IMG/VR virus record: IMGVR_UViG_3300016665_000824
Location: 64,001-128,000 of that record
Source of the DNA: a virus
DNA: 64,000 nt
Reading direction: 5' to 3' (one strand)
Below the pieces are notes generated by a model. That model searched no databases, had not been told where the DNA came from, and was given only the letters and a program-made list of their open reading frames with translations. Of the stretch, positions 687 through 52,279 are shown piece by piece; position 1 is the first letter of the stretch, and each line of letters begins with the position of its first letter. The position numbers and the translations under genes were made by a program.

Positions 687-1109
687 ATACTCTTCCAGAA
701 TAATCCCGATCTCTACCTCATCCTCTTTGGATACACCCAAGAACTTACGCACGGGTAAACCCTCTAGTCCTAATTGATGCTTCCGCATATAGTCCACATT
801 AGTACCCACAACCACGCGATCTTTAGTTGCCGCATAGTTAATCGAAGCTCGACCTCGACCTGACGCTTGGAGGATTTTATCGATATACCCCTTAGCCTTC
901 TTTAGTCGCCTTGTATAGGGCGTATTAGCCTTCCAAGGGTTTCCGTCGGGGTCAACCTCTTTCTCGAATCTCTGGTCTGTACTCAATAGAAGTTGCTGTC
1001 CGATCTCATTCATTACTGGAGTGAGGTCGGATGTTTTTTTGATCAACTTTCGGAGTTGCTCTTGGATGGCTTTGTCATTATAAGTGAGCGAGATGATTGG
1101 ATCAGCCAT
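672..1109 (-). CDS. phage virion morphogenesis protein (Mu gpG-like)
   Basis: 145 aa; ILQASGRGRASINY segment typical of Mu G-like family; directly downstream of Mu F-like gene with 8-nt overlap. Confidence 0.5.
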   Translation of the reverse strand: MADPIISLTYNDKAIQEQLRKLIKKTSDLTPVMNEIGQQLLLSTDQRFEKEVDPDGNPWKANTPYTRRLKKAKGYIDKILQASGRGRASINYAATKDRVVVGTNVDYMRKHQLGLEGLPVRKFLGVSKEDEVEIGIILEEYLRED

Positions 1110-1812
1110 TGACTTTCGCCTTGATTTGCTTCTTGACTTGAGTTCTCAGGTCTGGGGATAGTCGCTTCAGTCCCTGATTCAATATTTGCTGAGTTGTCTT
1201 CGCGTCTGTACCGCGACGAAAGTTGACACCCATGATCGTGTCGGGATCTGGTGGGTTTTCCAAGATTTCAATACCATTTCGCTCGCAGTAAGCGCGAGAC
1301 ACAGCGATCGCAGTACACTTGCAATTCCAATCACATGGAAATCCTATTCGCCTCCAGAAAGGAGAGGCTGCGGGAATCCCTTTATTGTGTAAAGCCTTAT
1401 GTGCTGGACGAGGCACTACCGAGTCGCGATGTCTCCATACCCATATATCGAGTTTCGCCATCACTTCAGGACTCCGCATCACCTTCTCCCTACCCTGCCA
1501 ATAAGACTTGTTGATATTCGTATCAAAAATCAACTTAATCTTCTGACCATTCGGCTGATATCCTGCGCGACCGATACGACGGTTAAAGCTACGAGTAAAT
1601 TGCTCGAAGGACGTGCCATCTTCAAGGGCTTTACCGATTAACCACTTAGTTGCTTCAAGTAAATCTGCTCGCATTAATCCAGATACCATAAAAGCGTGGT
1701 CGTGGATACGGGCATCTAAACCTTTGTAGTCGGATATAGGTAGAGCTAACCGATCGCGTAAGGCTGCGATCGCATCAACAGGTTTTAACTTCAAATACTC
1801 AGGGGTTGCCAC
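1102..1812 (-). CDS. phage head morphogenesis protein, Mu F / SPP1 gp7 family
   Basis: 236 aa; C-terminal PCDWNCKC resembles the conserved HPNCRC-type motif of the Mu F family; stop/start overlaps neighbours. Confidence 0.6.
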   Translation of the reverse strand: MATPEYLKLKPVDAIAALRDRLALPISDYKGLDARIHDHAFMVSGLMRADLLEATKWLIGKALEDGTSFEQFTRSFNRRIGRAGYQPNGQKIKLIFDTNINKSYWQGREKVMRSPEVMAKLDIWVWRHRDSVVPRPAHKALHNKGIPAASPFWRRIGFPCDWNCKCTAIAVSRAYCERNGIEILENPPDPDTIMGVNFRRGTDAKTTQQILNQGLKRLSPDLRTQVKKQIKAKVNG

Positions 1813-4394: not shown

Positions 4395-4953
4395 AATGTC
4401 TTTTCACTTCTAGATAGGCGGCTTGGTACTCAAGGGGTTTGGTTGAGTCAACTCGTTTAGATTTTGCGAGTGGTTTCTTATAGTTCGGAGCCTTGTCTTG
4501 ACCACCACAAGCGCATTGAGCTTTAGTCAACCCTTTCTTCTTGCAGTCCGAACATCCGCATTTATCGTTCATACCCATAGAATCCACCTTGTATTTATTA
4601 CTGCCGTTAGCAGGAAGGCTCTTTGACCACAAATCTTTCCTTGCCCAATGATTGGGACTAAACACGTCGTTTGCTGTGGACTGCCCTGATTTGTTTTTAA
4701 TCCCCGCCGATCGCGCTAAGTAGCTCTTCTTCGCCTCGGCGCTGTAGTTGTTCTGATATCCAGTTGCGCCATAGTGGACAACCTTGATGCGATCGCCTTT
4801 TTTCACGAGTACAGCCCGTTTCTTGCCTGGTCGCCATGACTTGATGGGTTTGTTAAAAGCGGGAAAGGTATGCCCAGCATAGTTAATACCGCCACCTTCC
4901 TTCTTGAGGCAGCGCTTGCCTGCCGAGATATATCCTTTGCCGCATTGAGCCAT
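4378..4953 (-). CDS. basic Cys-rich hypothetical protein
   Basis: 191 aa ORF, Lys-rich with CGCSDC and CACGG cysteine clusters; 17-nt overlap with downstream gene. Confidence 0.4.
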   Translation of the reverse strand: MAQCGKGYISAGKRCLKKEGGGINYAGHTFPAFNKPIKSWRPGKKRAVLVKKGDRIKVVHYGATGYQNNYSAEAKKSYLARSAGIKNKSGQSTANDVFSPNHWARKDLWSKSLPANGSNKYKVDSMGMNDKCGCSDCKKKGLTKAQCACGGQDKAPNYKKPLAKSKRVDSTKPLEYQAAYLEVKRHYARSR

Positions 4954-5039: not shown

Positions 5040-6593
5040 TTGGCATTTAGTTGTGCGATCGCTATGGCAAAATTTACAACAGGAGATCAGGCTTCAACTG
5101 CTGCTCTGTCGCGAGTTGACACTCTTCTCCAAACTATAAATACCGACGCAGACTATGCGCTTTGGCGGGAATGGATTTATGACAGGGCGATCGCCAAACT
5201 AGCACTAGGCTTAACTGGCGGAGGTGGAAGCTCCACTTCAATTCTTGCGGGTTTCAAGGCGATCGCTAATGGCACTGGCTACAGTATTGGCGATTTGATA
5301 TTTTTGCGGCAAACAGGAACTAACCAAACCGAATATTACAACGGTACTACAGGTTTAGTTATTACACCTGCCCCACCTAGCAGCGATCTTGGCTCTATTA
5401 TCTCTTCTAGTAATGTTGCTGTTACATCACTTCCTCCATTGCCGTCTGGCGCAAATACCATTGGCGCTATATCAAATGCTAGTTTTGGTATTAGTGGTAG
5501 CTTGCCAGCATTTGCTAGCACACCCACAGTAAATATTGGTACTACTGGCGCGATCGCCACTGATAGCACCTTACAGCAAGTAAGGGACGCGATCAAAGCA
5601 CAGATCGATATCGCCTCAACAATTTGGACAGATAACACAGATACTTTTTATGTACGACGAGATCTGGTAAACGAAGGAACGGGAGTAATCACTGTATCTT
5701 TTACTTTGCCAGACGGTACGGCGGCTACACCTAGCGCTGGACTTAGACCTCTAGCAACCGTAGATAAAGATGTTCTTAGTGATTATTACGATGTATTGAT
5801 TGCGGGTACTGGCTATGCGATCGGGGATTTATTAGCAAGGGTTGCGATCATTGATGCAAACGGTGCTTCTCCAACATCAACATTTATCTGGCTGAATTTG
5901 ACGGCAGGGACAATCCTCGGAACAGCACCTAGTTCTGCAAATATTGAAAGAGCGAACGAAACTATCGGTGCTAGGCAAAGCGGTACATGGAATATCACCA
6001 ATATTAGTGGTACGGTATCACTACCTACGGGAGCCAGTACATCGGCTAATCAGGCTACAGCGATCTCAAGCCTTGGCAGCATTGACGGAAAACTCCCTGC
6101 GAGTTTAGGGGTAAAAACTGCTGCTAATTCACTTGCTGTAACGCTTTCAACGGATGGAATCGCGAGTGGAATTGACACAAAAATTGGCGAAGTCCAAACA
6201 ACTCCAACTGCTAATACTGTTTTGGCGAGATTAAAAAATATTGCTGATGCGTTGGTGTTTGGGGCAAAATCACCAGCTAATAGTATTTCAGTTACCCAAG
6301 CTTTCGCCGCAACATCTACCCTAGCGAATGTGGCTAGTAGTGCGACATCAGTTAGCTTGTTAGCTGCCAACAATAACCGCAAAACAGCAATCATTCTAAA
6401 TGATTCGACTTCAGATTTATACGTTACTCTCAACGCAAGCGCCGCCAGTACGACGAATTATTCATTATTTTTAGCCGCTAAAGTTGGTAACACGCCATCA
6501 TTTTTAGCTATAAATGGTGATGATTATTCGGGCGAAATTCGTGGAATTTGGAGTAGTGCTAATGGTTTCGCAAGAATTACGGAGGTCGTGTAA
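5040..6593 (+). CDS. tail fibre-like protein (Ser/Thr/Ala/Gly-rich); ATG at 5064 is an alternative start
   Basis: 517 aa low-complexity S/T/A/G/N-rich composition typical of fibre/receptor-binding proteins; stop overlaps next start (TAATG). Confidence 0.5.
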   Translation: MAFSCAIAMAKFTTGDQASTAALSRVDTLLQTINTDADYALWREWIYDRAIAKLALGLTGGGGSSTSILAGFKAIANGTGYSIGDLIFLRQTGTNQTEYYNGTTGLVITPAPPSSDLGSIISSSNVAVTSLPPLPSGANTIGAISNASFGISGSLPAFASTPTVNIGTTGAIATDSTLQQVRDAIKAQIDIASTIWTDNTDTFYVRRDLVNEGTGVITVSFTLPDGTAATPSAGLRPLATVDKDVLSDYYDVLIAGTGYAIGDLLARVAIIDANGASPTSTFIWLNLTAGTILGTAPSSANIERANETIGARQSGTWNITNISGTVSLPTGASTSANQATAISSLGSIDGKLPASLGVKTAANSLAVTLSTDGIASGIDTKIGEVQTTPTANTVLARLKNIADALVFGAKSPANSISVTQAFAATSTLANVASSATSVSLLAANNNRKTAIILNDSTSDLYVTLNASAASTTNYSLFLAAKVGNTPSFLAINGDDYSGEIRGIWSSANGFARITEVV

Positions 6594-7498
6594 TGATTAT
6601 TGTTAATAATTCCACTAGTGCTGCTGGCATTGGGAAAAACTATTTTAAGAATCCCAATTTTCAAGTAATCCAAGGCACTGCATCAGGGACGCTCGCCAAT
6701 TCCACAGCATTACCCACAGCATCACTAGGATACCTAGGTGAGACTGAATGGGGTATTGCGGCGGCGGGTGGCACTCCTGCTTATGCTTTTAGCTCAGCGA
6801 ATGAATCTGTTACCTTTACGGGTGCAGCATCAACTACCGCTATTTATTTGCTTCAAAGACTTGAAAGCAGAGATATTACTACTCTAGCCAACAAACTGGC
6901 GACAATTACTTTTAGTGCTGAGATATCTAATTCGCTGCTTACTTCGGTAATTTGGGAAGTATTTCGCCCTACTACCACTGCTGACACTCATGGCACAATT
7001 GGCACACCTACGCAGACATTGATTGCTAGTGGAACGTTCACCGTAAACTCAACGCTGACAAAGTATAGCGCCACATTTACCCTTCCTGCATTAGCTGCTA
7101 ATGGACTGGAGGTAAGACTAAGAGTAGGGGCGCAAACTTCTGGAACTTGGGTGGTGTCAAGGTTGCAATTAGAAGAAGGTAGTGTTGCTACTAACTTCAT
7201 TTGTGATGATTATTTGACTGAATTGAATCAATGTCAAAGATACTTTAGAAGATTATCAGATTATCTATATGTTTATTTTGGTACTACTGGTGTATTAAAT
7301 AGTGAACGAATGCATTTAAATATGTTTGGTACTACTAGAATTAGAAATTTAATAGCACAAAATTCAATAGGTGGAACTGGAGTTACTATATCAGCAGGAC
7401 TTAATGAAGATTCAACTAGAGCTAATTATATAAATAATGCTGGAGCTGGTTACTATGGTGGCAATCCATTATATACAGTGTCAGCACACATCCCTTAA
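6593..7498 (+). CDS. tail fibre-like protein
   Basis: 301 aa, S/T/A/G-rich, translationally coupled to upstream fibre-like gene. Confidence 0.45.
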
Positions 7499-7515
7499 AA
7501 ATACAAATAAAAACA

Positions 7516-7896
7516 ATGGAATTTACATATAAACTAATACAAAATCAACCAAACTCCATCATAAGACTTGAAGATGGAGCAATTATCCCAGAAGGGCATA
7601 ATGGTGATTGGCAACTTTACGAGGCATGGTTAGCTGAAGGAAATACGCCTGAAGCCGCTGATGCGCTGCCTATTGTAGTGCGGGAAATCGATGCTCGTAA
7701 ACTGCGATTAGCTTTGCTTCAATTAGGGCATCTATCTACCGTCACTAGCGCTATTTCTAGCCTTGGTGAGGCTGCAATCATTGATTGGGAATATGCCACA
7801 ATCATTCGCGAAGATTACCCTTTGGTACTGGCTTTGGCAAGCAATTTAAATTTGGATATTAAAGCAATATTTGATTTAGCGAATTCATTGGTGTAA
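7516..7896 (+). CDS. hypothetical protein (possible tail-fibre assembly/chaperone by position)
   Basis: 126 aa ORF directly downstream of fibre-like genes; positional inference only. Confidence 0.35.
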
Positions 7897-7898
7897 TT

Positions 7899-8444
7899 GT
7901 GGCAGGAGATCTAATCCCAATCTTAAAGAGCTATTTTGATTTTGCGGTGATCGCGCAAATATCGGACAATAGAGGTACGGTTGGGATACCTTCTCAATCA
8001 AATCCCCCCGACAGCAGCATCAGCCAGATCAGCACTGCTGCTGTCGGTAGTGCTGTCGTTGTTACTGCTCTTTTTAAATTGTTTGAAAAATTTGGAACAA
8101 ATGTAATTGATGGGCAAAAAAGCAGGCTTAGCCTTGATTTAAAGGCTAAAGAGCTAGAGCTAGAATTTGAAAAGGCTGAAAAGTTGGCAGCCAGAAAAGA
8201 GGAAGAGCGCAAAACTGAACTAATCGAACAAATACTGAATAACGCACTGTCACACGTTTACAGCACAGCCAAAGAAAACAAAGAAATTTACCATGAATTG
8301 CTTGAAAAATTCCAAAAAAGTAACGAAATTAACGAGAAAGCTTGGAGCAAAATAGAAGAACAAAGCCAAGAAATCCATTTGTTAAACCAAACTTTAAAAG
8401 ATGTTTTAGCGACGCTAAGTTTGAAAGATCGTCAAAAAACCTAA
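7899..8444 (+). CDS. hypothetical protein with hydrophobic segment and Lys/Glu-rich coiled-coil region
   Basis: 181 aa ORF; start 3 nt after upstream stop. Confidence 0.4.
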   Translation: MAGDLIPILKSYFDFAVIAQISDNRGTVGIPSQSNPPDSSISQISTAAVGSAVVVTALFKLFEKFGTNVIDGQKSRLSLDLKAKELELEFEKAEKLAARKEEERKTELIEQILNNALSHVYSTAKENKEIYHELLEKFQKSNEINEKAWSKIEEQSQEIHLLNQTLKDVLATLSLKDRQKT

Positions 8445-8930: not shown

Positions 8931-9337
8931 ACCTCTACCGCCTTAACACCATAATCGAAACTGAGAAGCTTGATCAAAAAGCTTGGCAACTCATCTTCAA
9001 GTCTAGTAAATCCAGTCTCTGACTGCCCTTCAAGATACGTGTAAACGTAGTAGGGAGCTTCTTCTTGGAGTAAGAAATAAAATTGATATCCTTGATGATC
9101 GTAAAAAACAATAGCTTCGTCAGGAAGTTCCTTTAAAAACCCATCCTCTTTGAGCAAAGATTTAAAAGCTGCTTTTACTTCGGAGCAAGAGTGAACAAGC
9201 AGGGCTATCAACTTGTTGTTCTCGCCTAGTAGTAGTTCTGTACTCATAGACTGATGGAGTCGCTCAAACTCTTCGGTAGGAGCGTCGGAAAAATTTATTC
9301 TTAGGAGATCCTGAACCTTATCGAAAACTATATACAT
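8927..9337 (-). CDS. hypothetical protein (start moved to internal ATG at 9337)
   Basis: Track ORF 8927..9442 overlaps upstream gene; internal Met (MYIVFDKV) removes most of the overlap. Confidence 0.4.
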   Translation of the reverse strand: MYIVFDKVQDLLRINFSDAPTEEFERLHQSMSTELLLGENNKLIALLVHSCSEVKAAFKSLLKEDGFLKELPDEAIVFYDHQGYQFYFLLQEEAPYYVYTYLEGQSETGFTRLEDELPSFLIKLLSFDYGVKAVEV

Positions 9338-9552
9338 TTTAATCCTAAATCCTTGGTGGCTTTGATAGCGTCCTTTTCTGAGTCGGCGGCGTACAGGCAA
9401 AACTTGTCGGCGATCGCCTGTACCTTCCATAGCCCTGCCCATCCCTGCTCGATCTCAACTGGTTCCTGTGTATTCACAATGTTGGTGGCACGAATCAAGG
9501 TGTTGCTGAGCAGGTGGGAGTTTTGAATATCTTCGAGTGTTAATTTTGCCAT
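9328..9552 (-). CDS. hypothetical small protein
   Basis: 74 aa; ATG immediately follows the stop of the 551-aa gene (TAAATG on minus strand). Confidence 0.4.
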   Translation of the reverse strand: MAKLTLEDIQNSHLLSNTLIRATNIVNTQEPVEIEQGWAGLWKVQAIADKFCLYAADSEKDAIKATKDLGLKCI

Positions 9553-11208
9553 TTATTTGAGTCGTCCCTCAACCCACATCTTAGCAAAGGGAGAGTCCAA
9601 ATCCTTAAACAACCGAGAAGCAATTTCTACAGCCGAAACGGAATCCTGTTTAACACCTTCTTCGGGAGGTGTATCTGCTTGACCCTGATCTGCACCTTGA
9701 TCGCCAAAGTAGTCGCCACCTTGATCGCCGCCATATCCCTGTAGAGCTGCAAGCTCTTGTTGCTGCTTGGCTAATTCTTCATCCTGCTTCAGTTTTTCCC
9801 ACGCTTCCTTATCGAGAGAGACCTCATAGGAGTACTCTGTTCCACCGTAGAGGCTAGCGCGAACTTCATCCTTAGTAATTGCTCCCGACTGGGTTTGCAG
9901 AGCGATAAGCATATTAGTGTGAGCAGTTTGGTTGGCTACTTCATCTTTGCGACTCTCTACATAGAGGGGTTTAAACTTATAAGACCATCCTTCAGGGATC
10001 TTACCCTTCGTAGGGCCATCTTGAGCGAGCCAAATATACTTGTAAAGCATATCCAACTTGCGGTGGCGATAATTCTGCTCTTGATAGGCAGCAACGGTCT
10101 TTGACCAAACCTGATCTTCGGTTTCTCCAGTACCACCTGCCGCTAACCCTTTTGGTCCACGCCCAAAGATCATTGTGTAAGGAATCCCCACCGCAGCAAC
10201 CAAATCTTCTTGAAAGCTCGCTTTCATGTCGGACAAGCCTTGGTAGTTCCGCACTAGATAAGTAAGGTCATCTTCCGAGTCTACCGACACCGCCCCCAGC
10301 TTCCGCATCTGCATCTTCATGGCGCGAAACTGTTCTGAAAGAATGGTTAAAGCTTTTGGCACTCCATTGGTAGTGGCAGCTCCACCAGCAGCTTTTTCTT
10401 GGGCAAGATTTTGTTTGATCAGGTTTTGCAGGTTCTTCATCTTGTGGAGAAGAATCGTGTGATCTTGAATCATCTCCGCCATTGCGTCGGAGACTTTTGT
10501 GTAGCGAGCAATTTCTTTGAGTGCTGAGACGATTAGCGGATCGCCCCATCCACCCGTCGATCGCAACAATCTTGGAGGTAATCGAGAACCATCAAATCGA
10601 ATAATCCGCGATTTGTGAATTAAGTTGAACGAGGTGTAGTTTGAGCCTAACTTATCTATCTTGGATTTCGATTCTTGGGAGTAAAAGACCTGATAAAAGT
10701 CGGGGTCATCAGAGGGTGCATCAAGGTTTGGGAAATACGGGCGGATATCCTGCGGGTCAAGCTCGTAGATACCCTTGATGGTTTTAATTTTTGCCGTGTT
10801 AACTGGCTCGTTTGGGGGTAGCCCATCATCGATATTGACGAGAATAGCTGCGCCGCCATAAATATTCGCTAGCCAGTCAGCCTTATTAAATTTGTATTTC
10901 GCTTCTATCCTTTCTTCGTACTGTTCAAAGGCTGTGGCAATCTTGCGATCAGTGTCCTTAACTAAGCTAATCTCAGTCCATTTTCTTGTTGCCTCGTCAG
11001 GAAACACCGAGACAATTTTCTTTCCTAGCCAGTCCCTAGATAGTTCTTCGAGGGCTTTGTAGCTTAGTCTGCGCCGATCGCCTGTGCTATTCATCCCCAG
11101 ATCATTCTGAGCGAGCAGGTTGTTGTTGTACTCAGCCTCATAGAGCGCATCGATAATGGCTCCGTCTTGTCTCACATAGACTTCGGGATAATCTGTTTCT
11201 TTGGACAT
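9553..11208 (-). CDS. major virion structural protein (portal or major capsid candidate; not resolvable by eye)
   Basis: 551 aa ORF with Gly/Asp/Gln-rich C-terminal tail; preceded by intrinsic terminator and leader inverted repeat; downstream of a coiled-coil scaffold-like gene. Confidence 0.6.
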   Translation of the reverse strand: MSKETDYPEVYVRQDGAIIDALYEAEYNNNLLAQNDLGMNSTGDRRRLSYKALEELSRDWLGKKIVSVFPDEATRKWTEISLVKDTDRKIATAFEQYEERIEAKYKFNKADWLANIYGGAAILVNIDDGLPPNEPVNTAKIKTIKGIYELDPQDIRPYFPNLDAPSDDPDFYQVFYSQESKSKIDKLGSNYTSFNLIHKSRIIRFDGSRLPPRLLRSTGGWGDPLIVSALKEIARYTKVSDAMAEMIQDHTILLHKMKNLQNLIKQNLAQEKAAGGAATTNGVPKALTILSEQFRAMKMQMRKLGAVSVDSEDDLTYLVRNYQGLSDMKASFQEDLVAAVGIPYTMIFGRGPKGLAAGGTGETEDQVWSKTVAAYQEQNYRHRKLDMLYKYIWLAQDGPTKGKIPEGWSYKFKPLYVESRKDEVANQTAHTNMLIALQTQSGAITKDEVRASLYGGTEYSYEVSLDKEAWEKLKQDEELAKQQQELAALQGYGGDQGGDYFGDQGADQGQADTPPEEGVKQDSVSAVEIASRLFKDLDSPFAKMWVEGRLK

Positions 11209-11257
11209 ATTCAGTGGCGATCGCGTATGTCCATCTGACAGGCGATCGCCACTGAAT
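11209..11257. promoter_or_regulatory. perfect 16-bp inverted repeat (ATTCAGTGGCGATCGC / GCGATCGCCACTGAAT, 17-nt spacer) abutting the start codon of the 551-aa gene
   Basis: Read directly: arms 11209-11224 and 11242-11257; start codon at 11206-11208 on minus strand. Confidence 0.55.
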
Positions 11258-11279
11258 CAGGAGTATTTGCTAAAAAAGC

Positions 11280-11309
11280 AAAACAGGACTGCGTTGGCAA
11301 TCCTGTTTT
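11280..11309 (-). terminator. rho-independent terminator-like hairpin for minus-strand transcripts
   Basis: 9-bp stem AAAACAGGA/TCCTGTTTT with 12-nt loop; on the minus strand followed by GCTTTTTTA. Confidence 0.5.
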
Positions 11310-11310
11310 A

Positions 11311-11328
11311 GGTGATTCAGATCGGAAT
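11311..11328. repeat. 18-mer GGTGATTCAGATCGGAAT (copy 1), abutting stop codon of minus-strand gene 11329..12120
   Basis: Exact copy at 21272-21289; one-mismatch copy at 49106-49123. Confidence 0.6.
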
Positions 11329-12120
11329 CTATTCTGGGATGTCTATATCCCCAAGCGCTCTTATCTTCTCTCTAAACTCTATAAATGTCCTTACCACGCC
11401 TATGTAGTCACTAAATCGAGTCTTAAGCTCAGAGACTTCTTTCTGGCTTAGCTGTAGAGACTCAATATAGTTTTGTTCTCGATCCTTGAGGTTCGCGTTC
11501 TCTTCCTTAAGATCCGCAATCTGTCTGCGTAGATCGGCGATCGCTATTAGGATCTGATCAATCTCCTCCTTTGTTATTGCGCTTGGAGGATCTTCAAACT
11601 CCCCATTCTGTAGGGCGATCGCGCCAATCTTCCGAATAGCTTCGCGGTACTGAAGTCTTTCTTTCTGGAGGTCGTAGGCACTTTTCTCGATCTTTGTATA
11701 CTCTGCGTCAGTCACGTATGGAGGGGACTCCACTTCGACACACAGAAAGTTCGTGCCAATTCTTGCTAATCTATACCCAATCTCGGACTTAGCTCGACGG
11801 ATATGATTTATCTGGGATTCCAGCTTTGTATAGAACTCGTCGGTCTCAACGTCGGACGGAGAAAAACCTTCGTCTAGCAAGAGCCTGCCAAGATAATCAA
11901 TCTTTTTAGCGAATAGCTTCTTGGTTTCTACTGCTCGTTCGTAGTCTTCTAGCTGCTCAACATAGGTCTGTGCAAGCGTCTGAATACTCTCGTACTGCGA
12001 TCGCGGAACGAACCACTTGGAAAGGATGTCGTTAATTAGATTCAAATCAATCCTCCAGCTCATCTGCGTCTGGGGGTGCGGGAGTGCTAACCACAGTAAG
12101 CCAATTAGCTTTTTGCTCAA
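11329..12120 (-). CDS. coiled-coil protein (scaffold-like by composition and position)
   Basis: 263 aa, Glu/Lys/Leu/Gln-rich heptad-like stretches; immediately upstream of the major virion gene. Confidence 0.4.
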   Translation of the reverse strand: MSKKLIGLLWLALPHPQTQMSWRIDLNLINDILSKWFVPRSQYESIQTLAQTYVEQLEDYERAVETKKLFAKKIDYLGRLLLDEGFSPSDVETDEFYTKLESQINHIRRAKSEIGYRLARIGTNFLCVEVESPPYVTDAEYTKIEKSAYDLQKERLQYREAIRKIGAIALQNGEFEDPPSAITKEEIDQILIAIADLRRQIADLKEENANLKDREQNYIESLQLSQKEVSELKTRFSDYIGVVRTFIEFREKIRALGDIDIPE

Positions 12121-12736
12121 CTAAAGCCGCTTGATAGTCCTGCTCCTCAAGAGTGGAGAGATCGGGGCGCAACTCGGCTAGTTTTTCGTCAGGAATGGCA
12201 ATCAATTTTTCGGCAGTTTTGACTGCGGCGATTTCTTCGGGAGTTACTTGCTGCCCAGTGAGATCTTCTAGGGTTGGCGCTTCAGGAGTTTTTTCGCCGA
12301 AGCCTTTTTTCTTGCGAGATTTCTTTTCTGGTTGAGGCTCCTCCACTGCGGCTTCCGTATTTTGAGGTAACACCGCATTGATAAATTCAATCAGTTCAGT
12401 TGCACCCAAACTTGCTGGCAAGGTGGGGATTAGCTTTCTGAGATTATTCTCCAATGCTACGCGGGGATTCTTGGCGGGGTCTGGCTCGATTTCAGGGTCT
12501 AGGTTTAGAGAGAACAAGAAAGCCGAGTCGCGATCGCTAGATTGTGTTTCCACCATTAGATCCTGAAAGGCTTTTACGGGATCTTTGGTTGTTAGCGCCG
12601 ACTCATAGGCTTTGGCGGACGAAATTTTTAAAAGCGACCAAATAATCTTGGTGGCAGGATCGATCGCGGCATCGCCAGAAACGAAGGGGTACTCAACGCC
12701 GCGCACGGTGATAGTGTTACTCAACGAATTCTCCAT
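12047..12736 (-). CDS. acidic hypothetical protein
   Basis: 229 aa ORF, Glu/Asp/Pro-rich C-terminus. Confidence 0.4.
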   Translation of the reverse strand: MENSLSNTITVRGVEYPFVSGDAAIDPATKIIWSLLKISSAKAYESALTTKDPVKAFQDLMVETQSSDRDSAFLFSLNLDPEIEPDPAKNPRVALENNLRKLIPTLPASLGATELIEFINAVLPQNTEAAVEEPQPEKKSRKKKGFGEKTPEAPTLEDLTGQQVTPEEIAAVKTAEKLIAIPDEKLAELRPDLSTLEEQDYQAALVEQKANWLTVVSTPAPPDADELED

Positions 12737-13247
12737 AAATATTTAGGTTTGACTGATATCGAAAAATCACGCCGAAGGGGATATCGACTATCCATGCAGG
12801 TGACTGCTCATACTGCGTCCTTATGGGCTGTCTTGGTACAGGGGTAATATCCCGTCCGTCCCATTCGACTCCTAAGAAGTTTTTGCTGGGGATTTTAAAT
12901 CTGTTGTACTTCGCGATCGCGTGAGAGATGAACGCCAGTTCGACAGGAACTTTTTGTTTGTATTCAGTCTCGTTGGCATATCCTTTGATCGCCAAAACCT
13001 CAATCCTTTGCATTCGATAAGCCCTGTTTGGGCTGTCGGGACGCTCAGAATCTTTGCCGTGGTCGCCAATTGAAGCTATGCCGACGGTCTCGCCTTCGAT
13101 CACGTTGTAGTAATCCCCACTAGTGTCTAAGTGCAGCTCACTGATAATGTGTGCGACAAAGTGATTTATCGACTCGGTTATAAGCCCTTTGTAATAGTCT
13201 TCAAAGTTCATCGTGGCGATCGCAAAATATTGCCTTGATATTACCAC
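12717..13247 (-). CDS. hypothetical protein
   Basis: 176 aa ORF in minus-strand structural block. Confidence 0.4.
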   Translation of the reverse strand: MVISRQYFAIATMNFEDYYKGLITESINHFVAHIISELHLDTSGDYYNVIEGETVGIASIGDHGKDSERPDSPNRAYRMQRIEVLAIKGYANETEYKQKVPVELAFISHAIAKYNRFKIPSKNFLGVEWDGRDITPVPRQPIRTQYEQSPAWIVDIPFGVIFRYQSNLNIYGEFVE

Positions 13248-13373
13248 AGAAATGCGTTATGGTTGTTATGCGATCGCCAAGTCTCAATTGGCAGGAAGAA
13301 TGTCACTGGCGACAAACATAAGGATACGCGGCGAGATACTGGCGATCATCTTAAAAGAAATCGTAAAAACCAC

Positions 13374-13805
13374 ATGAAAGAACTTGAAAACAATAAAGAT
13401 CTTGAATCTTTTCTAAAAGAGCTGCGAGAGCAGGCGGTTGCGGGTGACTTTGGTGTGGATGCTCTGCTTAACGAAGTAAGGAAAGCCGCAAAAAAGTGTG
13501 AAGAATTTAGGAATACAGAGTCTAGTCAGCCCAAGGATATTGAGTTTATTCAAGCTCTAATGCGATTTGCCGCTAACCAGCCCAGTCTTGCATTTCTAAC
13601 CCCTTATTTTGGCAAACAAAAATCAGAAGAAGAAGTTCAGGCTATTTTTAAATCGTTGCTGCTTAGGGAGTTAGGAGAACTCAAACTCTCTGCTAATCAC
13701 CACAAAGCCAGTATTCAGTTCTATCAATATGAACTAAAAAGGAACGAGAGATATCGAGCAGACATAGAAGAAGCGATCTCCAGAAATTATCCAAACCTAA
13801 AATAA
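13374..13805 (+). CDS. hypothetical protein (opposite-strand insert in the structural block)
   Basis: In-frame ATG at 13374 inside track ORF 13263..13805; Lys/Glu-rich. Confidence 0.35.
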   Translation: MKELENNKDLESFLKELREQAVAGDFGVDALLNEVRKAAKKCEEFRNTESSQPKDIEFIQALMRFAANQPSLAFLTPYFGKQKSEEEVQAIFKSLLLRELGELKLSANHHKASIQFYQYELKRNERYRADIEEAISRNYPNLK

Positions 13806-14050
13806 TGAACTTGTATATTTCAATTCTGTCGTACCTATCCCTTGGAGTTGCCTATACTCTTCTGAGGTACAAATACCTTGAAGACAACTGTATTAGGGCT
13901 TTGCGAGACAATTTTTCTTATCTGGATTCACGAACTCAAAATCTTCTGCTAAAACAGGTTCTTTTCTCCGTCGTCTTGACTTATCCTCTGTTTATTCTTG
14001 GAGGCATTTGGGACTGGATATGCGATCGCTTTAATCCGCCCGAAGACTAA
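13805..14050 (+). CDS. small membrane protein (two hydrophobic helices)
   Basis: 81 aa; ILSYLSLGVAYTLL and LTYPLFILGGIW hydrophobic segments; start overlaps upstream stop. Confidence 0.4.
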   Translation: MNLYISILSYLSLGVAYTLLRYKYLEDNCIRALRDNFSYLDSRTQNLLLKQVLFSVVLTYPLFILGGIWDWICDRFNPPED

Positions 14051-14781
14051 AACCCATCGGGGAAACAAACTCCCCGATCGCGCAGAATTCCCGCAATATC
14101 ATCCTTAACCCCTTCCCAGTATTCCCGATCAATCTTGCCGACTGCGACAGTCCGAGAAGTGGTCGGGAATTTTTGATCTTTCTCGGCATCTTTAGGATCT
14201 CGCTGGAGGTTAGCAGCTTCCTCAAGAATATCCATGACCATGCCCATGCCAAAACTCTTAAGCACCGTATCGCCAGAGCCTTTGAAATTTAGATGTACTG
14301 CGGCAATGATGCGAGCGTCCAAATTGCCTGTCGAGAGCGGTGCGGAAGGCTTGTCTTTGGACTGTTTGGGTTGACGACTTTGCTTGGCGGGATAGGTCAA
14401 ACCCATCAACAATTGCAGTTGTGATAGACCAGGCATTTCCTGCTCGTAGCCAACGGGTTTAACTGGCTCGGTACAGAAGAAAAAGTTGTGGCGGGACTTA
14501 GTGGTGAGATTGTCGATATTTAGGAGGCAGTCTGGCTGGGTGCGGCGAAATATCAGCGCGATCGCCTCTAAATGTTTGCGCGATCGATATACCAAGAACT
14601 GATGCACCGTAATTTCATCCTTTAATACTGCGTCGGGCGGATATACTGGTACACCCCTGATGAGTTCGAGCATGTCGTCGATAACAGGGATTAACTCGGA
14701 ACGGGTATGAAAAGATGGTTCGCGAATAAATTCCCACGACTCGTCTTCATAGTTAATTTTCTGAGGATAAATTAAGGGCAC
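14047..14781 (-). CDS. hypothetical protein (structural block)
   Basis: 244 aa ORF. Confidence 0.45.
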   Translation of the reverse strand: MPLIYPQKINYEDESWEFIREPSFHTRSELIPVIDDMLELIRGVPVYPPDAVLKDEITVHQFLVYRSRKHLEAIALIFRRTQPDCLLNIDNLTTKSRHNFFFCTEPVKPVGYEQEMPGLSQLQLLMGLTYPAKQSRQPKQSKDKPSAPLSTGNLDARIIAAVHLNFKGSGDTVLKSFGMGMVMDILEEAANLQRDPKDAEKDQKFPTTSRTVAVGKIDREYWEGVKDDIAGILRDRGVCFPDGF

Positions 14782-15508
14782 TTACGGCTAAATTGTTGTT
14801 ATCGAAAGCTAATCTCAAGGTGATGTTCTGCGCGTCGGCATCAAAAGCCTCAATTACGGGCAAAACATCCTTGATGACAACATGGTACGGCACTTCGCTT
14901 TTTATTGCCACAAGATTTAATTCGATGGGGGGTAAGGGCTGATTAGTGTTAACAACAACATCGTCCACCAAAACAACTGCCATTTGAGAGACGATCCGTT
15001 TGCCATAAAAGCTCCTGTTAACTTGAAAAGTACCATCGGGTGCGATCGCCACATCATTCCCATCGGTGTATTTGTCAGCAATCCGTAACGAAATATTGTC
15101 GCAAAGAACTTTGGGCTGGTCGGTTGTATCGAGCTTATAGTTAGCCGTCAATCGCTGAGTTGGTTCTAGCCTGCCCGTACCATCTTGATTGACGTTGGCT
15201 TGAAACAAGTAGCGTTGGCGGTAGTTTTTGTGGACTTTGTAATCTGAGCCAGAGGCGATCGCCACAATCTCCGCGCTATTAACAGTCTCAAATGACAATG
15301 CGACCACAGGCATTTTTACTGGCGTACTTTCCTGTGATCGCATCTTACCGAAAAACATTTTGTCCGAGCAGGCATCTCGAAAGATCTCCTGCTCGGAGAT
15401 GGCGATCGCGCCCAAGGACGGATACGCCGAAACTACTCGGCTTGGCTCCAATACAAGCCAAGCGCGGTAGAACACCATATCGTCGAGACTAGACTCCACG
15501 GGCAGCAC
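14753..15508 (-). CDS. hypothetical protein (structural block)
   Basis: 251 aa ORF. Confidence 0.45.
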   Translation of the reverse strand: MLPVESSLDDMVFYRAWLVLEPSRVVSAYPSLGAIAISEQEIFRDACSDKMFFGKMRSQESTPVKMPVVALSFETVNSAEIVAIASGSDYKVHKNYRQRYLFQANVNQDGTGRLEPTQRLTANYKLDTTDQPKVLCDNISLRIADKYTDGNDVAIAPDGTFQVNRSFYGKRIVSQMAVVLVDDVVVNTNQPLPPIELNLVAIKSEVPYHVVIKDVLPVIEAFDADAQNITLRLAFDNNNLAVSALNLSSEN

Positions 15509-16202
15509 GTAAAGCCTTGATAGACTTGGCGTGTTTAGCAGGTGCTAGGGTAACAACACCACTAGCACTTGCGGCGGTGGGTTGAGCACCGTCGAAGGAC
15601 TGGAAGTCCACGCTGACTTGGAAGTAAGCATCGGCATCACCAGAAACACCAGCATTGATATTGGTGGTAAAGATCTTGCCGTAGTTGGGTACACCGCTCG
15701 CAGCCGTCGCAACGGTCGTACTGGAAATTGTAAAAGATGTGCCAGTCTCGGTAACAGCGATCGTGTGGGCTTGACCAGGAACTACCGAGGTTACGGTAAT
15801 CGTGTAAGGACTAGCGACAGAAGCGGTGCTGGCGTAGAGATAAGGATTGAGGTTGATTAGAGCCAAGACAATTTCGATTACATCAGCAAGGCTGTCGCCA
15901 GACTGAACCGTGTAAGTCAACTCGCGAGTCTTGGGAGATCCAGAACCGTCGGTTGCCGAGACAATAACAGTGTCGCCTGCGGTAGGAGATGTTGCGGCAA
16001 TAGTAAAGGTGGAAACTTGAGCGATCGCGCTAGGGTTGAAAGATAGGTAGTGGTCAACTGTGTTGCGCTTGTTGGAGCCTACAAAGTTGACACTAGTTTG
16101 AGCGGTCAGAGGCAGTGTTGTAGGGGTCGAAGTGGTCGCGGTTTGACCGTAAGTAATCGAAGATACTGCTTGAGCCGAAGCTTCGGGGCTGTAGGAAGGC
16201 AT
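15489..16202 (-). CDS. Ser/Thr-rich virion structural protein candidate
   Basis: 237 aa, T/S/A/V-rich beta-rich composition. Confidence 0.45.
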   Translation of the reverse strand: MPSYSPEASAQAVSSITYGQTATTSTPTTLPLTAQTSVNFVGSNKRNTVDHYLSFNPSAIAQVSTFTIAATSPTAGDTVIVSATDGSGSPKTRELTYTVQSGDSLADVIEIVLALINLNPYLYASTASVASPYTITVTSVVPGQAHTIAVTETGTSFTISSTTVATAASGVPNYGKIFTTNINAGVSGDADAYFQVSVDFQSFDGAQPTAASASGVVTLAPAKHAKSIKALRAARGV

Positions 16203-16351
16203 TGAAAGTAATCCTCATGAGGGAATCCCCCGATACTTTCAGTTAAATAAGAAGGCTGTTTTTTTTTAGAGGAATTAGCGAATGTTATTCCCTATTTACC
16301 CTCGTTCTTGAGGTAGAATTACTTCAATCGATAACAAGCAGGGGTCTTCAC

Positions 16352-16630
16352 TTGGTGATTACGCAACAACTACGGGGGCTAGAAAGCTTCCTGTCGGAAC
16401 TATGCCCGTCACACGGATCTGGAATTGAATTAACTTCGATAGGCGATCGCGTCGTTAAAATTGCGTGTCAATACGAGGGTCACGCAAGAATTATTAGTGA
16501 TCTGCTAAAGCTGCAAAAAAACATAGCCAAGCTCGAAGGGCTTGGCTATGAAAAAGCAATAATTGTCTTTGCCAGCGCGACAAAGAAAGAAGTTATCTTG
16601 ACCGTAGAGACCTGTGACTATCTTCCCTGA
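16352..16630 (+). CDS. hypothetical protein
   Basis: 92 aa ORF. Confidence 0.3.
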   Translation: MVITQQLRGLESFLSELCPSHGSGIELTSIGDRVVKIACQYEGHARIISDLLKLQKNIAKLEGLGYEKAIIVFASATKKEVILTVETCDYLP

Positions 16631-17471
16631 TTGGCTCAAAGCCTAGTGGCGTTGCTAGCAGCTCCGCCACTGAATAGGGATCTCCATTCTCTTTCTTAAG
16701 GACTTCGAGCTTTGCTAGTTGCTTAACAATGCTCCTGATTTGTCCTAGATAAGAGCTTTCAGAGATTTTGTTTATGATCAGTTCTAGCTCCATCCTCACA
16801 AAGTTTTGTCCATCTTCGTTCATCTGATCGACTAGCGATCGCAGAACCCCGTCTTGAGTTATTCCTCTTAACGTCATTTGCTCTCTAACGTACTTACTCA
16901 GCAAGTCAGAGATGGTTGTCTCGGATTCCATGCGGTTTTCTTTTGTAGGTATTGTCTTCGACTCTATAGCCTCGACCTTCTTCCGCGAGTCGGCGGAAGG
17001 CGCTTTACTGGCAACTATTAGCGGGATCTCCTTCCTTATCCACGCATTTTTGGGTAGTTTGCCATCATCATTCGTGTCTAAATAATCAAAAACGTTGTAA
17101 TCCGAATCCACACTTCCCGTCATACAGAAGAGGAGGAATAATTTAGTCCAAGCTTCGTTCACTTTCGAGTCAGAATATCTTTGTTCTATTTCAAATCCGC
17201 GAGCCATCTCAGTAAGCTCCCCCCGCAGCCTTTCCTGAGCGGAAAATCTGTCCTTAGCTGTCAAGTTTGTGCCGTCTAGTTTGAGCAGATAGATAATAAA
17301 CTGCTGCATGTAATTACCAAACTCCGCTTGGCTCATTACCATTACATCTTTACGATAGCGCGAGAACCATCTTGAAAATGCCTTAGATCGAATTTTTGTT
17401 CTAGGGTCGTCCTTCCCCTTCTTGAGACTGCCTTGCTTTTCTTTGTCTTTCACCATAGTTGCCGAAGGCAT
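16593..17471 (-). CDS. hypothetical protein (ATG at 17471; track start 17495 is TTG)
   Basis: Long ORF; internal ATG 24 nt downstream of track start. Confidence 0.45.
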   Translation of the reverse strand: MPSATMVKDKEKQGSLKKGKDDPRTKIRSKAFSRWFSRYRKDVMVMSQAEFGNYMQQFIIYLLKLDGTNLTAKDRFSAQERLRGELTEMARGFEIEQRYSDSKVNEAWTKLFLLFCMTGSVDSDYNVFDYLDTNDDGKLPKNAWIRKEIPLIVASKAPSADSRKKVEAIESKTIPTKENRMESETTISDLLSKYVREQMTLRGITQDGVLRSLVDQMNEDGQNFVRMELELIINKISESSYLGQIRSIVKQLAKLEVLKKENGDPYSVAELLATPLGFEPIREDSHRSLRSR

Positions 17472-17595
17472 AATTTTCCTCTTGTTTTGCCACAAAATTA
17501 AAACATTTTTACGTTATATATGGTATCCTTATGAGGTGTCCATATATTGGATCAAATCCTAGTATAAGGATACACCAAAAAACGGAAAAACGAGT

Positions 17596-51775: not shown

Positions 51776-52279
51776 CTATTCAAAAACCGAGTGGCAAACG
51801 AGACATACATAAGCAGCGATCGCGTAGACATACTTATACTCCGATGGGAGGAATGTCGGTTGCAATAGGGCATATCCAAAGACTCCTGTGAAAACAAAGG
51901 CGATCGCTGCCACCATCTTTTTACCGATCAGTTTTGCCCATAGGTTGGCAAGACCTAAAACCAGCAACCAGAAAAGTAGTGACGGACGGAGCAACAGCCA
52001 GTTAACGAAGAATCTAACCGCATGGATGTCATGCCTGCGATGGAATAATCTAGAAACAGGGTGGACTATGCCGTGGTGAACGAAGTTACTTAAGGGTATG
52101 CAGTCTCGAAGTAGTAACTCGCGAGAAAGATTAGCGTAGGTCATGTGATGGGTCTGATTAGATTTTAGGAACGGGAATACAGCACACCTGTCGAACATAA
52201 TGCTACGAAATTTTCGAGACTTCTGCTGCCAATCTTTTGAATGAATGTAGGCTTGATAATCTACTCTTACTTTTGTCAT
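51776..52279 (-). CDS. integral membrane protein
   Basis: 167 aa with several hydrophobic segments (LLLRPSLLFWLLVLGLANLWA, AIAFVFTGVFGYALL). Confidence 0.45.
   Translation of the reverse strand: MTKVRVDYQAYIHSKDWQQKSRKFRSIMFDRCAVFPFLKSNQTHHMTYANLSRELLLRDCIPLSNFVHHGIVHPVSRLFHRRHDIHAVRFFVNWLLLRPSLLFWLLVLGLANLWAKLIGKKMVAAIAFVFTGVFGYALLQPTFLPSEYKYVYAIAAYVCLVCHSVFE

What the first reader, a model, noticed from the sequence alone, without database searches (positions are those of the whole stretch)
13263..14050. Opposite-strand two-gene insert inside the virion block
Two plus-strand genes (a Lys/Glu-rich protein and an 81-aa two-helix membrane protein) interrupt an otherwise minus-strand morphogenesis block, with a hairpin (about 14056-14078) after them. 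Moron-like inserts encoding small membrane proteins often mediate superinfection exclusion or abortive infection.
Basis: inference. Interest (0 to 1): 0.4.

Follow-up and report, generated by a model that had tools for sequence, protein, structure and literature searches.

The report
Swappable accessory-gene slot in cyanophage virion genes
Two small genes of unknown function sit backwards, under their own promoter, at a spot in a cyanobacterial virus's particle-building genes where closely related viruses carry quite different genes; this is the familiar pattern of fast-changing "extra" phage genes, not a new kind of system.

Summary
ORF A (13374-13805, 143 aa, all-helical, charged) and ORF B (13805-14050, 81 aa, two hydrophobic helices) lie on the + strand between minus-strand genes of a portal-containing virion module of an uncultured cyanophage distantly related to CL131 and PaV-LD.

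- **Variable slot.** In relatives whose flanking genes are 87-97% identical, the same slot always holds opposite-strand cargo, but the cargo differs. I found five clearly distinct cargo sets, and two short partial contigs suggest more.
- **Promoter.** A sigma-70-like promoter (TTGATA-17 nt-TATGGT) is shared by all of them.
- **Leader.** An ~80-nt structured leader with four covarying base pairs is shared by lineages with unrelated cargo.
- **Gene status.** ORF A belongs to a small unannotated family with no sequence or fold match. ORF B is real: a diverged A-B pair exists in another contig.
- **Hairpin.** The 14056-14078 hairpin lies inside the convergent gene. Its U-tail is on the minus strand, and it is not conserved.

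"Moron-like insert" is supported. A superinfection-exclusion or abortive-infection role for the membrane protein is plausible but untested. Novelty: a new member of a known kind, namely an accessory region or moron. The structured leader is the most interesting by-product.

The parts
13235..13263 (+). Sigma-70-like promoter of the cassette: -35 TTGATA (13235-13240), 17-nt spacer, -10 TATGGT (13258-13263).
   Evidence: Found by the consensus scan. The hexamers and the 17-nt spacer length are conserved while the spacer sequence varies, in the window, L002, L005, L025, L026, L004, L022 and L028. Promoter activity itself is inferred.
13270..13349 (+). Structured 5' leader (type 1). P1 pairs 13270-13279 with 13340-13349 and is built on a HIP1 copy (13270-13277) and a degenerate HIP1 copy (13342-13349). 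P2 pairs 13281-13285 with 13333-13337. P3 pairs 13300-13303 with 13316-13319. The loops AAUUGGCAGGAAGAA and UAAGGAUACGCGGCG are nearly invariant (one L002 and one L005 difference in the first).
   Evidence: Shared by the window, L002, L005, L025, L026 and L028 although the downstream ORFs differ. 99% of cells pair, against 24-47% in slid controls, and 4 pairs change on both sides. RNAalifold predicts the same helices on its own. No Rfam match up to E = 10. The covariance model finds it only at this slot. Only about 4 independent lineages are available.
13374..13805 (+). ORF A, 143 aa. Soluble, highly charged, all-alpha, with a C-terminal helix of about 54 residues. Founding member of a small unannotated family with the motif P.DIE.IQAL..FAANQP.L.FL.PYF ... 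YEL.RN.
   Evidence: Coding score is the best of six frames. There are 7 representatives at 33-50% identity among 1.84 billion proteins (alignment). AlphaFold2 on a 10-sequence alignment gives pLDDT 86.9. No hit in Pfam, PHROGs, PADLOC, PDB sequences, or Foldseek against PDB and BFVD.
13805..14050 (+). ORF B, 81 aa, a predicted two-helix membrane hairpin (about residues 2-20 and 47-69). The connecting loop is net positive and the C-terminal tail is acidic. Its start overlaps ORF A's stop (TAATG), and its stop overlaps the stop of the convergent 244-aa gene (CTAA).
   Evidence: ORF and translation; hydropathy and coding score. The only full-length database copy is the source contig itself. A partial homologue follows an ORF A homologue in L028. 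Topology is inferred from the positive-inside rule.
14056..14078 (-). Hairpin with a 9-bp stem inside the last codons of the 244-aa gene. On the minus strand it is followed by GGGUUUUAG. It is terminator-like for the 237-251-244 transcript, not for the cassette.
   Evidence: One search lists it as a minus-strand terminator-like site, and the + strand has no T-run. One search gives -25.9 kcal/mol for the 70-nt minus-strand stretch containing it, with weaker or different structures in L004, L005, L022 and L025.
14047..14781 (-). Right flank: conserved 244-aa gene (phrog_23655; homologue of CL131 ORF007 and PaV-LD ORF054L), convergent with the cassette.
   Evidence: It is 87-97% identical in relatives.
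12717..13211 (-). Left flank: 164-aa gene (starts MNFEDYYK), divergent from the cassette. Its start codon lies 24 nt from the cassette's -35 box.
   Evidence: It is only 66-73% identical in relatives, and its first 10 residues are unique to the window lineage, so the mosaic boundary reaches into it.

Best explanation
**What it is.** The region is an independently transcribed accessory-gene cassette, in the sense of a moron or accessory region. It occupies a recombination-prone slot between two conserved operons of the virion module of an uncultured cyanophage.

**How it is built (shown).**
- A host-type sigma-70-like promoter fires away from the 164-aa-to-portal operon and towards the 237-251-244 operon.
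- The transcript begins with a HIP1-closed structured leader. It then encodes ORF A, a cytoplasmic helical protein, and ORF B, an inner-membrane hairpin coupled to A by the TAATG overlap.
- The slot is modular. All relatives share the promoter, the leader comes in two forms, and the coding cargo is exchanged between otherwise near-identical phages.

**What follows from that (inferred).**
- The products are not virion parts. They act on the host or on competing phages.
- My most likely specific mechanism, at about 30%: B inserts in the cytoplasmic membrane and, together with A, blocks entry or development of a superinfecting phage, or otherwise alters the envelope.
- The nearest alternative, at about 25%: A is a fast-evolving inhibitor of a host defence or host process, and B is one of several interchangeable partners.
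- The cassette has no terminator of its own and ends stop-to-stop against a convergent gene. Its expression and that of the late operon probably interfere with each other.
For: **Phage context.**
- Portal PF06381 at 9553-11208.
- The 237-aa flank is homologous to CL131 ORF011 (35% identity, E 3e-13), which is a virion protein by mass spectrometry (PMC6293099 Table S5).
- 185 HIP1 copies against about 1 expected by chance.

**Variable slot.** Cargo at this junction, by lineage:
- Window and L002: A plus B.
- L028: A homologue plus B homologue.
- L022, L023, L024: A homologue plus a 71-aa soluble protein.
- L025: two tandem A paralogues.
- L003, L004, L008, L009, L010: DUF7873 plus a 79-aa zinc-ribbon-like ORF.
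- L005: a 95-aa protein.

**Flanks and breakpoints.**
- Flank identity is 87-97% for the 244-aa gene and 80-96% for the portal. ORF A homologues are 40-45% identical or absent.
- Homology with the L004 type breaks at 13282 and resumes at 14043. With L005 it breaks at 13379 and the aligned block resumes at about 14098.

**Other support.**
- Promoter conserved with a fixed spacer length.
- Leader structure supported by covariation.
- Lower GC content than the backbone.
- Between the window and its 98.6%-identical relative L002, ORF A has 6 nonsynonymous and 2 synonymous differences. The flanks have 2 and 6.
- The A-B pairing recurs in L028.
- In CL131 an opposite-strand pair (ORF008, ORF009) at the neighbouring junction is absent from the virion proteome.
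Against: - No functional homology of any kind for A or B, so the mechanism is inference from context only.
- No empty slot was found in any relative. This is cassette replacement, not a demonstrated insertion.
- No + strand terminator, unlike classical morons.
- No integrase was found among the window proteins I searched against Pfam. This covered only part of the window, and the rest of the 134-kb source contig was not examined. CL131 is reported as virulent. Prophage-style expression is therefore unsupported.
- B occurs in only two lineages, whereas A occurs with several other partners and in other contexts (L029, L030). B may be incidental to A's function.
- The nonsynonymous/synonymous contrast rests on 8 and 8 substitutions and is not statistically significant.
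Confidence: 0.65

Rival explanations
1. **Anti-defence or host-takeover gene set.** ORF A is the effector, a fast-evolving cytoplasmic inhibitor of a host immunity or housekeeping protein made early from the host-type promoter. The downstream small gene (B, the 71-aa protein, or a second A copy) is an interchangeable helper.
For: - A is the recurrent occupant of the slot and is highly diverged, at 29-50% identity, between conserved flanks.
- Tandem A paralogues occur in L025.
- A also occurs with other partners in L029 and L030.
- There is an excess of charge-changing replacements against L002.
- The model is small and helical and matches no known fold. From my own knowledge, that is common among known anti-defence proteins.
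Against: - No match to any known anti-defence family.
- No host or defence system is known for this uncultured phage.
- The A-B gene overlap and the recurrence of the pair in L028 suggest that B matters in this lineage.
Confidence: 0.25
2. **Toxin-antitoxin or abortive-infection pair.** B is a small membrane-depolarising toxin and A is its cytoplasmic antidote, together excluding competitors by killing doubly infected cells.
For: - It is a two-gene operon with overlapping stop and start codons.
- B is a small hydrophobic hairpin.
- The upstream partner is soluble, which fits the usual antitoxin-then-toxin order (my own knowledge).
Against: - No PADLOC hit.
- A occurs without B in at least three other arrangements, which an antitoxin dedicated to B would not.
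- No DNA-binding domain was detected in A.
Confidence: 0.1
3. **Lysis-timing module.** B is a class II-like holin or antiholin and A is its regulator.
For: B is 81 aa with two transmembrane helices and a charged C-terminus, which resembles the general holin layout (my own knowledge).
Against: - Near-identical phages replace the cassette with unrelated soluble proteins, which is unlikely for an essential lysis gene.
- No endolysin is adjacent. The only wall-hydrolase-like protein I found (M23/SLT) is at 52276-53424.
- No PHROG holin match.
Confidence: 0.07
4. **Virion assembly accessory.** The pair is a chaperone, scaffold helper or decoration protein belonging to the structural module.
For: It lies between virion-module genes. 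A has a long helix like many scaffolding or chaperone proteins.
Against: - It is on the opposite strand, with its own host-type promoter and a lower GC content.
- It is replaced by unrelated genes in phages whose structural genes are 87-97% identical.
- The comparable CL131 pair is not in virions.
Confidence: 0.05

Closest known systems
Morons of lambdoid phages, e.g. the HK97 gene 15 moron in the tail operon (PMC3594210, read)
   Same: - Extra genes embedded in a virion-gene block.
- Own promoter.
- GC content different from the neighbours.
- A small inner-membrane protein as a product. HK97 gp15 blocks DNA entry of superinfecting phages.
   Different: - No terminator of its own, and it ends stop-to-stop against a convergent gene.
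- No relative with an empty site was found: cargo is replaced, not added.
- There is no evidence that this phage is temperate.
- B shows no similarity to gp15/YebO (no Pfam hit).
- A conserved structured leader precedes the cargo.
Phage hotspots or accessory regions: variable genes between conserved genes of related phages, e.g. the P2/P4 hotspots of antiviral systems (PMC9122126) and the accessory-gene concept of bioRxiv 10.1101/2023.04.06.535777 (titles and abstracts seen)
   Same: - Conserved flanks with unrelated cargo at one junction across relatives.
- Cargo is small, fast-evolving and unannotated.
   Different: - The cargo here matches no known defence or anti-defence family.
- The phage is a large cyanophage, probably virulent.
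- The promoter and leader form a fixed expression platform shared across different cargo.
Anti-CRISPR loci of Mu-like Pseudomonas phages
   Same: A slot within head-morphogenesis genes that holds variable small genes, driven by a dedicated conserved promoter, with one recurrent family next to variable partners.
   Different: - The cassette here is on the opposite strand.
- The recurrent protein (A) has no detectable helix-turn-helix domain.
- No acr or aca homology was tested positive.
CL131 ORF008-ORF009 pair (MG209611)
   Same: An opposite-strand two-gene unit with a predicted sigma-70 promoter inside the homologous ORF011-ORF010-ORF007 module. It was not found in the virion proteome.
   Different: - It sits one junction over, between the ORF010 and ORF007 homologues.
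- Its proteins are unrelated: one is annotated as a transcriptional regulator similar to a WYL-domain protein, and the other has a very weak HepT-like hit (E 0.055).

Membership tests
Moron (definition in PMC3594210) | Extra DNA between genes that are adjacent in related phages | tested here: inconclusive
   Every close relative has some cargo in the slot, and no empty site was found. In PaV-LD the 244-aa homologue is followed by the terminase gene, which is a different neighbourhood.
Moron (definition in PMC3594210) | [quoted passage not shown] | tested here: met
   A is 39.6% GC and B is 40.7%, against 45.6% for the window and 47.5-47.8% for the adjacent 1-kb bins.
Moron (definition in PMC3594210) | Own promoter | tested here: met
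   TTGATA-17 nt-TATGGT at 13235-13263. The hexamers and spacer length are conserved in 8 loci while the spacer sequence varies. This is an in-silico result only.
Moron (definition in PMC3594210) | Own terminator | tested here: not met
   There is no + strand terminator-like site after B. The hairpin's T-run is on the minus strand, and the stop codons of B and the 244-aa gene overlap.
Moron (definition in PMC3594210) | Expression from a repressed prophage | not testable with these tools
   No integrase was found among the window proteins I scanned. CL131, a distant relative, is reported as virulent.
Phage accessory region or hotspot | Conserved flanking genes with different gene content at one junction among related genomes | tested here: met
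   Five clearly distinct cargo sets lie between flanks that are 87-97% (244-aa gene) and 66-73% (164-aa gene) identical. Breakpoints are mapped at 13282 or 13379 on the left and at about 14043 on the right.
Known anti-phage defence systems (PADLOC-DB 2.0) | Profile match of a component protein | tested here: not met
   No hit at E <= 0.1 for A, B, or the alternative cargo proteins.
Holins (PHROGs and Pfam families) | Profile match, adjacency to an endolysin, and conservation among relatives | tested here: not met
   No PHROG or Pfam hit. Neither neighbour is a lysin. Relatives replace the cassette with other genes.
HK97 gp15 / YebO-like superinfection-exclusion proteins | Sequence similarity to the YebO/gp15 family | tested here: not met
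   B has no Pfam or PHROG match. The only homologues among 5.8 billion proteins are the source contig's own copy and the L028 fragment.
Rfam cis-regulatory RNAs (for the leader) | Covariance-model match | tested here: not met
   No match up to E = 10 over 13200-14150 on either strand.

The most novel reading that the evidence does not exclude
The ~80-nt leader (13270-13349) may be an undescribed cis-acting regulatory RNA. It would bind a protein or a small ligand and serve as a fixed expression platform for interchangeable accessory genes in this cyanophage lineage.

- Its loop sequences are nearly invariant.
- Its stems covary and tolerate G-U pairs that are valid only on the + strand.
- It is retained upstream of at least three unrelated cargo sets.

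HIP1 palindromes close the structure and lie next to the exchange points. They could also supply the short homologies used to swap cargo.
Probability: 0.3. Interest if true: 0.6.

Novelty: new member of a known kind. Interest (0 to 1): 0.38.

Why it matters
**A starting point for experiments.** Freshwater cyanophages of filamentous, bloom-forming cyanobacteria are poorly known, and most of their genes have no assigned function. This slot marks where such phages keep their fastest-changing genes, which are probably the ones that interact with the host. It also supplies a short list of candidates:
- the ORF A family
- the ORF B membrane hairpin
- the DUF7873 protein
- several small proteins

These could be tested for exclusion or anti-defence activity.

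**A possible regulatory design.** One conserved promoter and structured leader serves unrelated cargo. If the leader proves regulatory, it would be a new phage RNA element.

**What is not new.** A variable accessory cassette inside structural genes is a well-established pattern in phage genomes.

Tried and rejected
**Searches that found nothing for A or B.**
- Pfam, PHROGs and PADLOC on A and B, and on every A-family member.
- PDB sequence-profile search with the A family; best E 0.28.
- Foldseek of a confident A model (pLDDT 86.9) against PDB and BFVD; no match at E <= 0.001. An earlier single-sequence model was too poor to use (pLDDT 56).

**Searches for relatives.**
- Megablast of 9000-17500 against GenBank phages: no match.
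- The search for related loci with the window's 176-aa ORF version of the left flank: nothing, because that gene is too diverged. An alignment-based repeat recovered only the same three IMG/VR contigs.
- Two exact-pattern scans of IMG/VR for the leader found only the L005 contig.
- The genome-contig scan returned only PaV-LD-like loci in misbinned MAGs, so there is no evidence of a prophage copy.

**Readings I rejected.**
- The 180-aa TTG-initiated version of ORF A. Its first 37 codons are the shared promoter and leader.
- A conserved upstream peptide in the leader. The window's 25-codon uORF (ATG 13300 to TGA 13377) has no start codon in L025 or L005.
- The leader as a repeated element. It is single-copy in the window.
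- The hairpin as the cassette's terminator.
- tRNA genes in the slot of L004-type relatives. ARAGORN finds none, and Rfam gives only sub-threshold tRNA-like fragments.
- The CL131 toxin-antitoxin pair as a parallel. It is ORF066/067, elsewhere in that genome.

Full report
**Source and setting**

The window is part of a 134,398-bp metagenome contig (ENA ERZ27292652, k141_20893).
- It carries 185 copies of the cyanobacterial HIP1 palindrome GCGATCGC, where about 1 is expected by chance.
- It encodes a Phage_portal_3 portal at 9553-11208 on the minus strand.
- It also encodes DnaB, DnaG, a beta clamp, ThyX and DNA methylases.
- Its portal is only about 28-31% identical to those of the cyanophages S-CBS4, vB_AphaS-CL131 and PaV-LD. 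Megablast finds no close GenBank phage.

I conclude that it is an uncultured large cyanophage.

**The local gene order**

The genes run on the minus strand in this order: 237 aa, 251 aa, 244 aa, then the + strand pair, then 164 aa, 225 aa, a 238-aa coiled-coil protein, and the portal.
- The first three are homologues of CL131 ORF011, ORF010 and ORF007, and of PaV-LD ORF056L, 055L and 054L.
- CL131 ORF011 and its portal were found in virions by mass spectrometry. ORF007 to ORF010 were not (PMC6293099 Table S5).

"Virion block" is therefore a fair description, though not every flank gene is a proven structural gene.

**Checking the observation**

Both + strand ORFs exist, and the public gene calls agree on 143 aa and 81 aa.

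*ORF A.* It most likely starts at ATG 13374, not at TTG 13263.
- Position 13263 is the last base of the promoter's -10 hexamer.
- The stretch 13283-13373 is shared at the DNA level with relatives whose downstream ORFs are unrelated.
- ORF A has 23 K+R and 24 D+E in 143 residues, and a clear coding signal.

*ORF B.* It starts at the TAATG overlap with ORF A's stop.
- It has two hydrophobic segments, about residues 2-20 and 47-69, a net-positive loop and an acidic tail.
- Its codon score is weak but still the best of six frames.
- A diverged copy of its N-terminus (54% identity over 26 residues, E 3e-9) follows a 50%-identical ORF A homologue on contig L028. I accept it as a gene on that basis.

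*The hairpin.* The hairpin at 14056-14078 is real, with a 9-bp stem.
- It lies within the last codons of the convergent 244-aa gene.
- Its T-run is on the minus strand, and there is none on the + strand.
- Relatives have weaker or different structures at that position.
- If it terminates anything, it terminates the 237-251-244 transcript.
- The stop codons of B and of the 244-aa gene overlap (CTAA). The same stop-to-stop arrangement occurs with the unrelated cargo of L004 and L005.

**Comparison with relatives**

I used the 244-aa flank and the ORF A family as probes. This recovered about 15 contigs from the same phage lineage.

| Lineage | Cargo in the slot (always opposite-strand) |
|---|---|
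| Window, L002 | A + B (L002 ends 29 nt into B) |
| L028 | A homologue (50% identity) + B homologue (contig ends 28 codons into B) |
| L022, L023, L024 | A homologue (40% identity) + 71-aa soluble protein |
| L025 | Two tandem A paralogues |
| L003, L004, L008, L009, L010 | 243-aa DUF7873 protein (PF25283, E 1.8e-83), about 370 nt of non-coding DNA, and a 79-aa zinc-ribbon-like ORF |
| L005 | One 95-aa acidic protein |

L026 carries the first L025-type A gene, but the contig ends there.

Identity to the window across these genomes:

| Gene | Identity to the window |
|---|---|
| 244-aa gene | 87-97% |
| Portal | 80-96% |
| 164-aa gene | 66-73%; its first 10 residues are unique to the window lineage |
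| ORF A homologues | 40-45%, or absent |

The blastn breakpoints are:
- Homology with the L004 type ends at 13282 and resumes at 14043.
- Homology with L005 ends at 13379, just past A's start codon. The aligned block resumes at about 14098.

This is cassette exchange at a fixed junction. I found no relative with an empty slot.

**The expression platform**

All lineages share a promoter-like site: TTGATA, exactly 17 nt of variable sequence, then TAT(G/T/A)(G/T)T. Downstream, two alternative leaders occur, and neither is tied to a particular cargo.

*Type 2 leader (L004 type, L022 type).* This is a simple HIP1-closed hairpin: GCGATCGCCTAG, a 14-nt loop, then CTAGGCGATCG.

*Type 1 leader (window, L002, L005, L025, L026, L028).* This is an ~80-nt element.
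- The outer helices P1 and P2 and the inner helix P3 pair in 99% of alignment cells, against 24-47% in slid controls.
- Four pairs change on both sides. In P3 the types are AU/UA/CG, GC/AU and UA/CG. In P2 they are UA/CG.
- RNAalifold predicts the same helices independently.
- Several one-sided changes create G-U pairs. These would be A-C mismatches on the other strand, which points to the + strand RNA as the functional form (my inference).
- The loops AAUUGGCAGGAAGAA and UAAGGAUACGCGGCG are nearly invariant.

*Other tests on the leader.*
- No Rfam family matches.
- A covariance model finds the element only at this slot.

*Caveats.*
- Only about four independent lineages are available.
- P1 is partly trivial, because HIP1 is a palindrome and any two copies can pair.
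- The single-sequence fold is not exceptional (z = -1.09).
- The window's small uORF in the leader is not conserved.

**The proteins**

ORF A has seven representatives at 33-50% identity among 1.84 billion proteins. Their shared motif is P.DIE.IQAL..FAANQP.L.FL.PYF ... YEL.RN.
- AlphaFold2 on the 10-sequence alignment gives a confident all-alpha model (pLDDT 86.9) that ends in a helix of about 54 residues.
- Foldseek against PDB and BFVD, a PDB sequence-profile search, Pfam, PHROGs and PADLOC all return nothing significant.
- Family members also occur outside this slot. In L029 one follows a J-domain-like protein and faces a tape-measure-like gene. In L030 one has a different promoter and a different partner.
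- Against the 98.6%-identical L002, A has 6 nonsynonymous and 2 synonymous differences, four of them charge-changing. The two flank genes together have 2 and 6. This is suggestive only.

**Interpretation**

*Shown.* This is an opposite-strand cassette with lower GC content, driven by a host-type promoter, in a slot whose cargo is exchanged among near-identical phages.

*Inferred.*
- The products are accessory and not part of the virion.
- They are made independently of the late operons.
- They act on the host or on rival phages.

For this particular cargo, my leading mechanism is a membrane-level block to superinfection or an envelope change by B together with A (about 30%). The nearest alternative is an anti-defence or host-takeover role for A (about 25%). 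A toxin-antitoxin, holin or assembly role is less likely, mainly for two reasons:
- A occurs without B in several arrangements.
- Phages with near-identical structural genes do without the whole cassette.

**Comparison with known systems**

The cassette meets the moron criteria of different GC content and its own promoter. It fails the criterion of its own terminator. The "extra DNA" criterion is inconclusive, and prophage expression cannot be tested (definition from PMC3594210). It fits the broader, well-known class of phage accessory regions or hotspots (PMC9122126; bioRxiv 10.1101/2023.04.06.535777).

It is therefore a new member of a known kind, built from unannotated protein families. The shared structured leader is its one unusual feature.

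Noticed in passing
window 13270-13349 (+): A structured ~80-nt leader with nearly invariant loops and four covarying base pairs. Lineages with unrelated downstream genes share it. It matches no Rfam family. A second, simpler HIP1-closed hairpin leader replaces it in other relatives (L004:9030-9070, L022:4928-4968).
   Followed up: yes
window 1102-1812, 4378-4953, 9553-11208 (all minus strand): Three separate ORFs match successive parts of phrog_220, 'minor head protein and DNA pilot'. The portal matches profile positions 52-501, the 191-aa ORF positions 512-631, and the 236-aa ORF positions 896-1116. In CL131 the ORF annotated 'putative portal protein' is a single 1393-aa protein (ORF012); I did not scan it against phrog_220. 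If it is the fused form, the protein is split here, with other genes between the pieces.
   Followed up: partly
window 5040-8444 (+): A second opposite-strand block interrupts the minus-strand virion region between the portal and the other pilot-protein pieces. It has four genes (509, 301, 126 and 181 aa), and the 301-aa protein has a tail-fibre-like PHROG hit. GC content falls to 38.5% at 7001-8000.
   Followed up: no
window 8931-9337 (minus-strand 136-aa gene): This gene has no counterpart in the L004/L009 lineage. The blastn blocks on either side abut in those loci. It is a same-strand presence/absence difference just downstream of the portal gene.
   Followed up: no
L004:7897-8263 (also in L003, L008, L009, L010): The DUF7873-type cargo is followed by about 370 nt of non-coding DNA with tRNA-like T-arm sequences. 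ARAGORN finds no tRNA. Rfam gives only sub-threshold matches: YrlA (Y RNA-like) at 25.7 bits against a threshold of 69, and a fragment matching the tmRNA 3' end.
   Followed up: partly
L006 (CL131) 5921-6678: CL131 has its own opposite-strand two-gene unit, ORF008 and ORF009, inside the homologous module but one junction over, between ORF010 and ORF007. The published tables predict a sigma-70 promoter upstream of ORF008. Opposite-strand pairs therefore recur in this module across the wider lineage.
   Followed up: partly
window 11329-12120 (minus strand) compared with L004:10278-11156 and L022:3101-3709: The coiled-coil gene between the 225-aa gene and the portal is highly mosaic. It is 87% identical to L004 over the first 207 residues, after which L004 has a different, longer C-terminus with repeated LSQKEVQRLEGE units. 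It is only 32% identical to L022.
   Followed up: no
whole window: The HIP1 palindrome GCGATCGC occurs 185 times in 64 kb, about one per 346 nt, against about 1 expected by chance. Copies lie at or next to the module boundaries of the slot (13216, 13270 and 14022, plus a degenerate copy at 13342). This raises the untested idea that they supply the short homologies used for cargo exchange.
   Followed up: partly
L029:28-450 and 470-901: An ORF A family member (P0005) lies directly after a J-domain-like protein (motif HHPDTGGD) and faces a tape-measure-like gene. This phage context is unrelated, so the A family is not confined to this slot.
   Followed up: no
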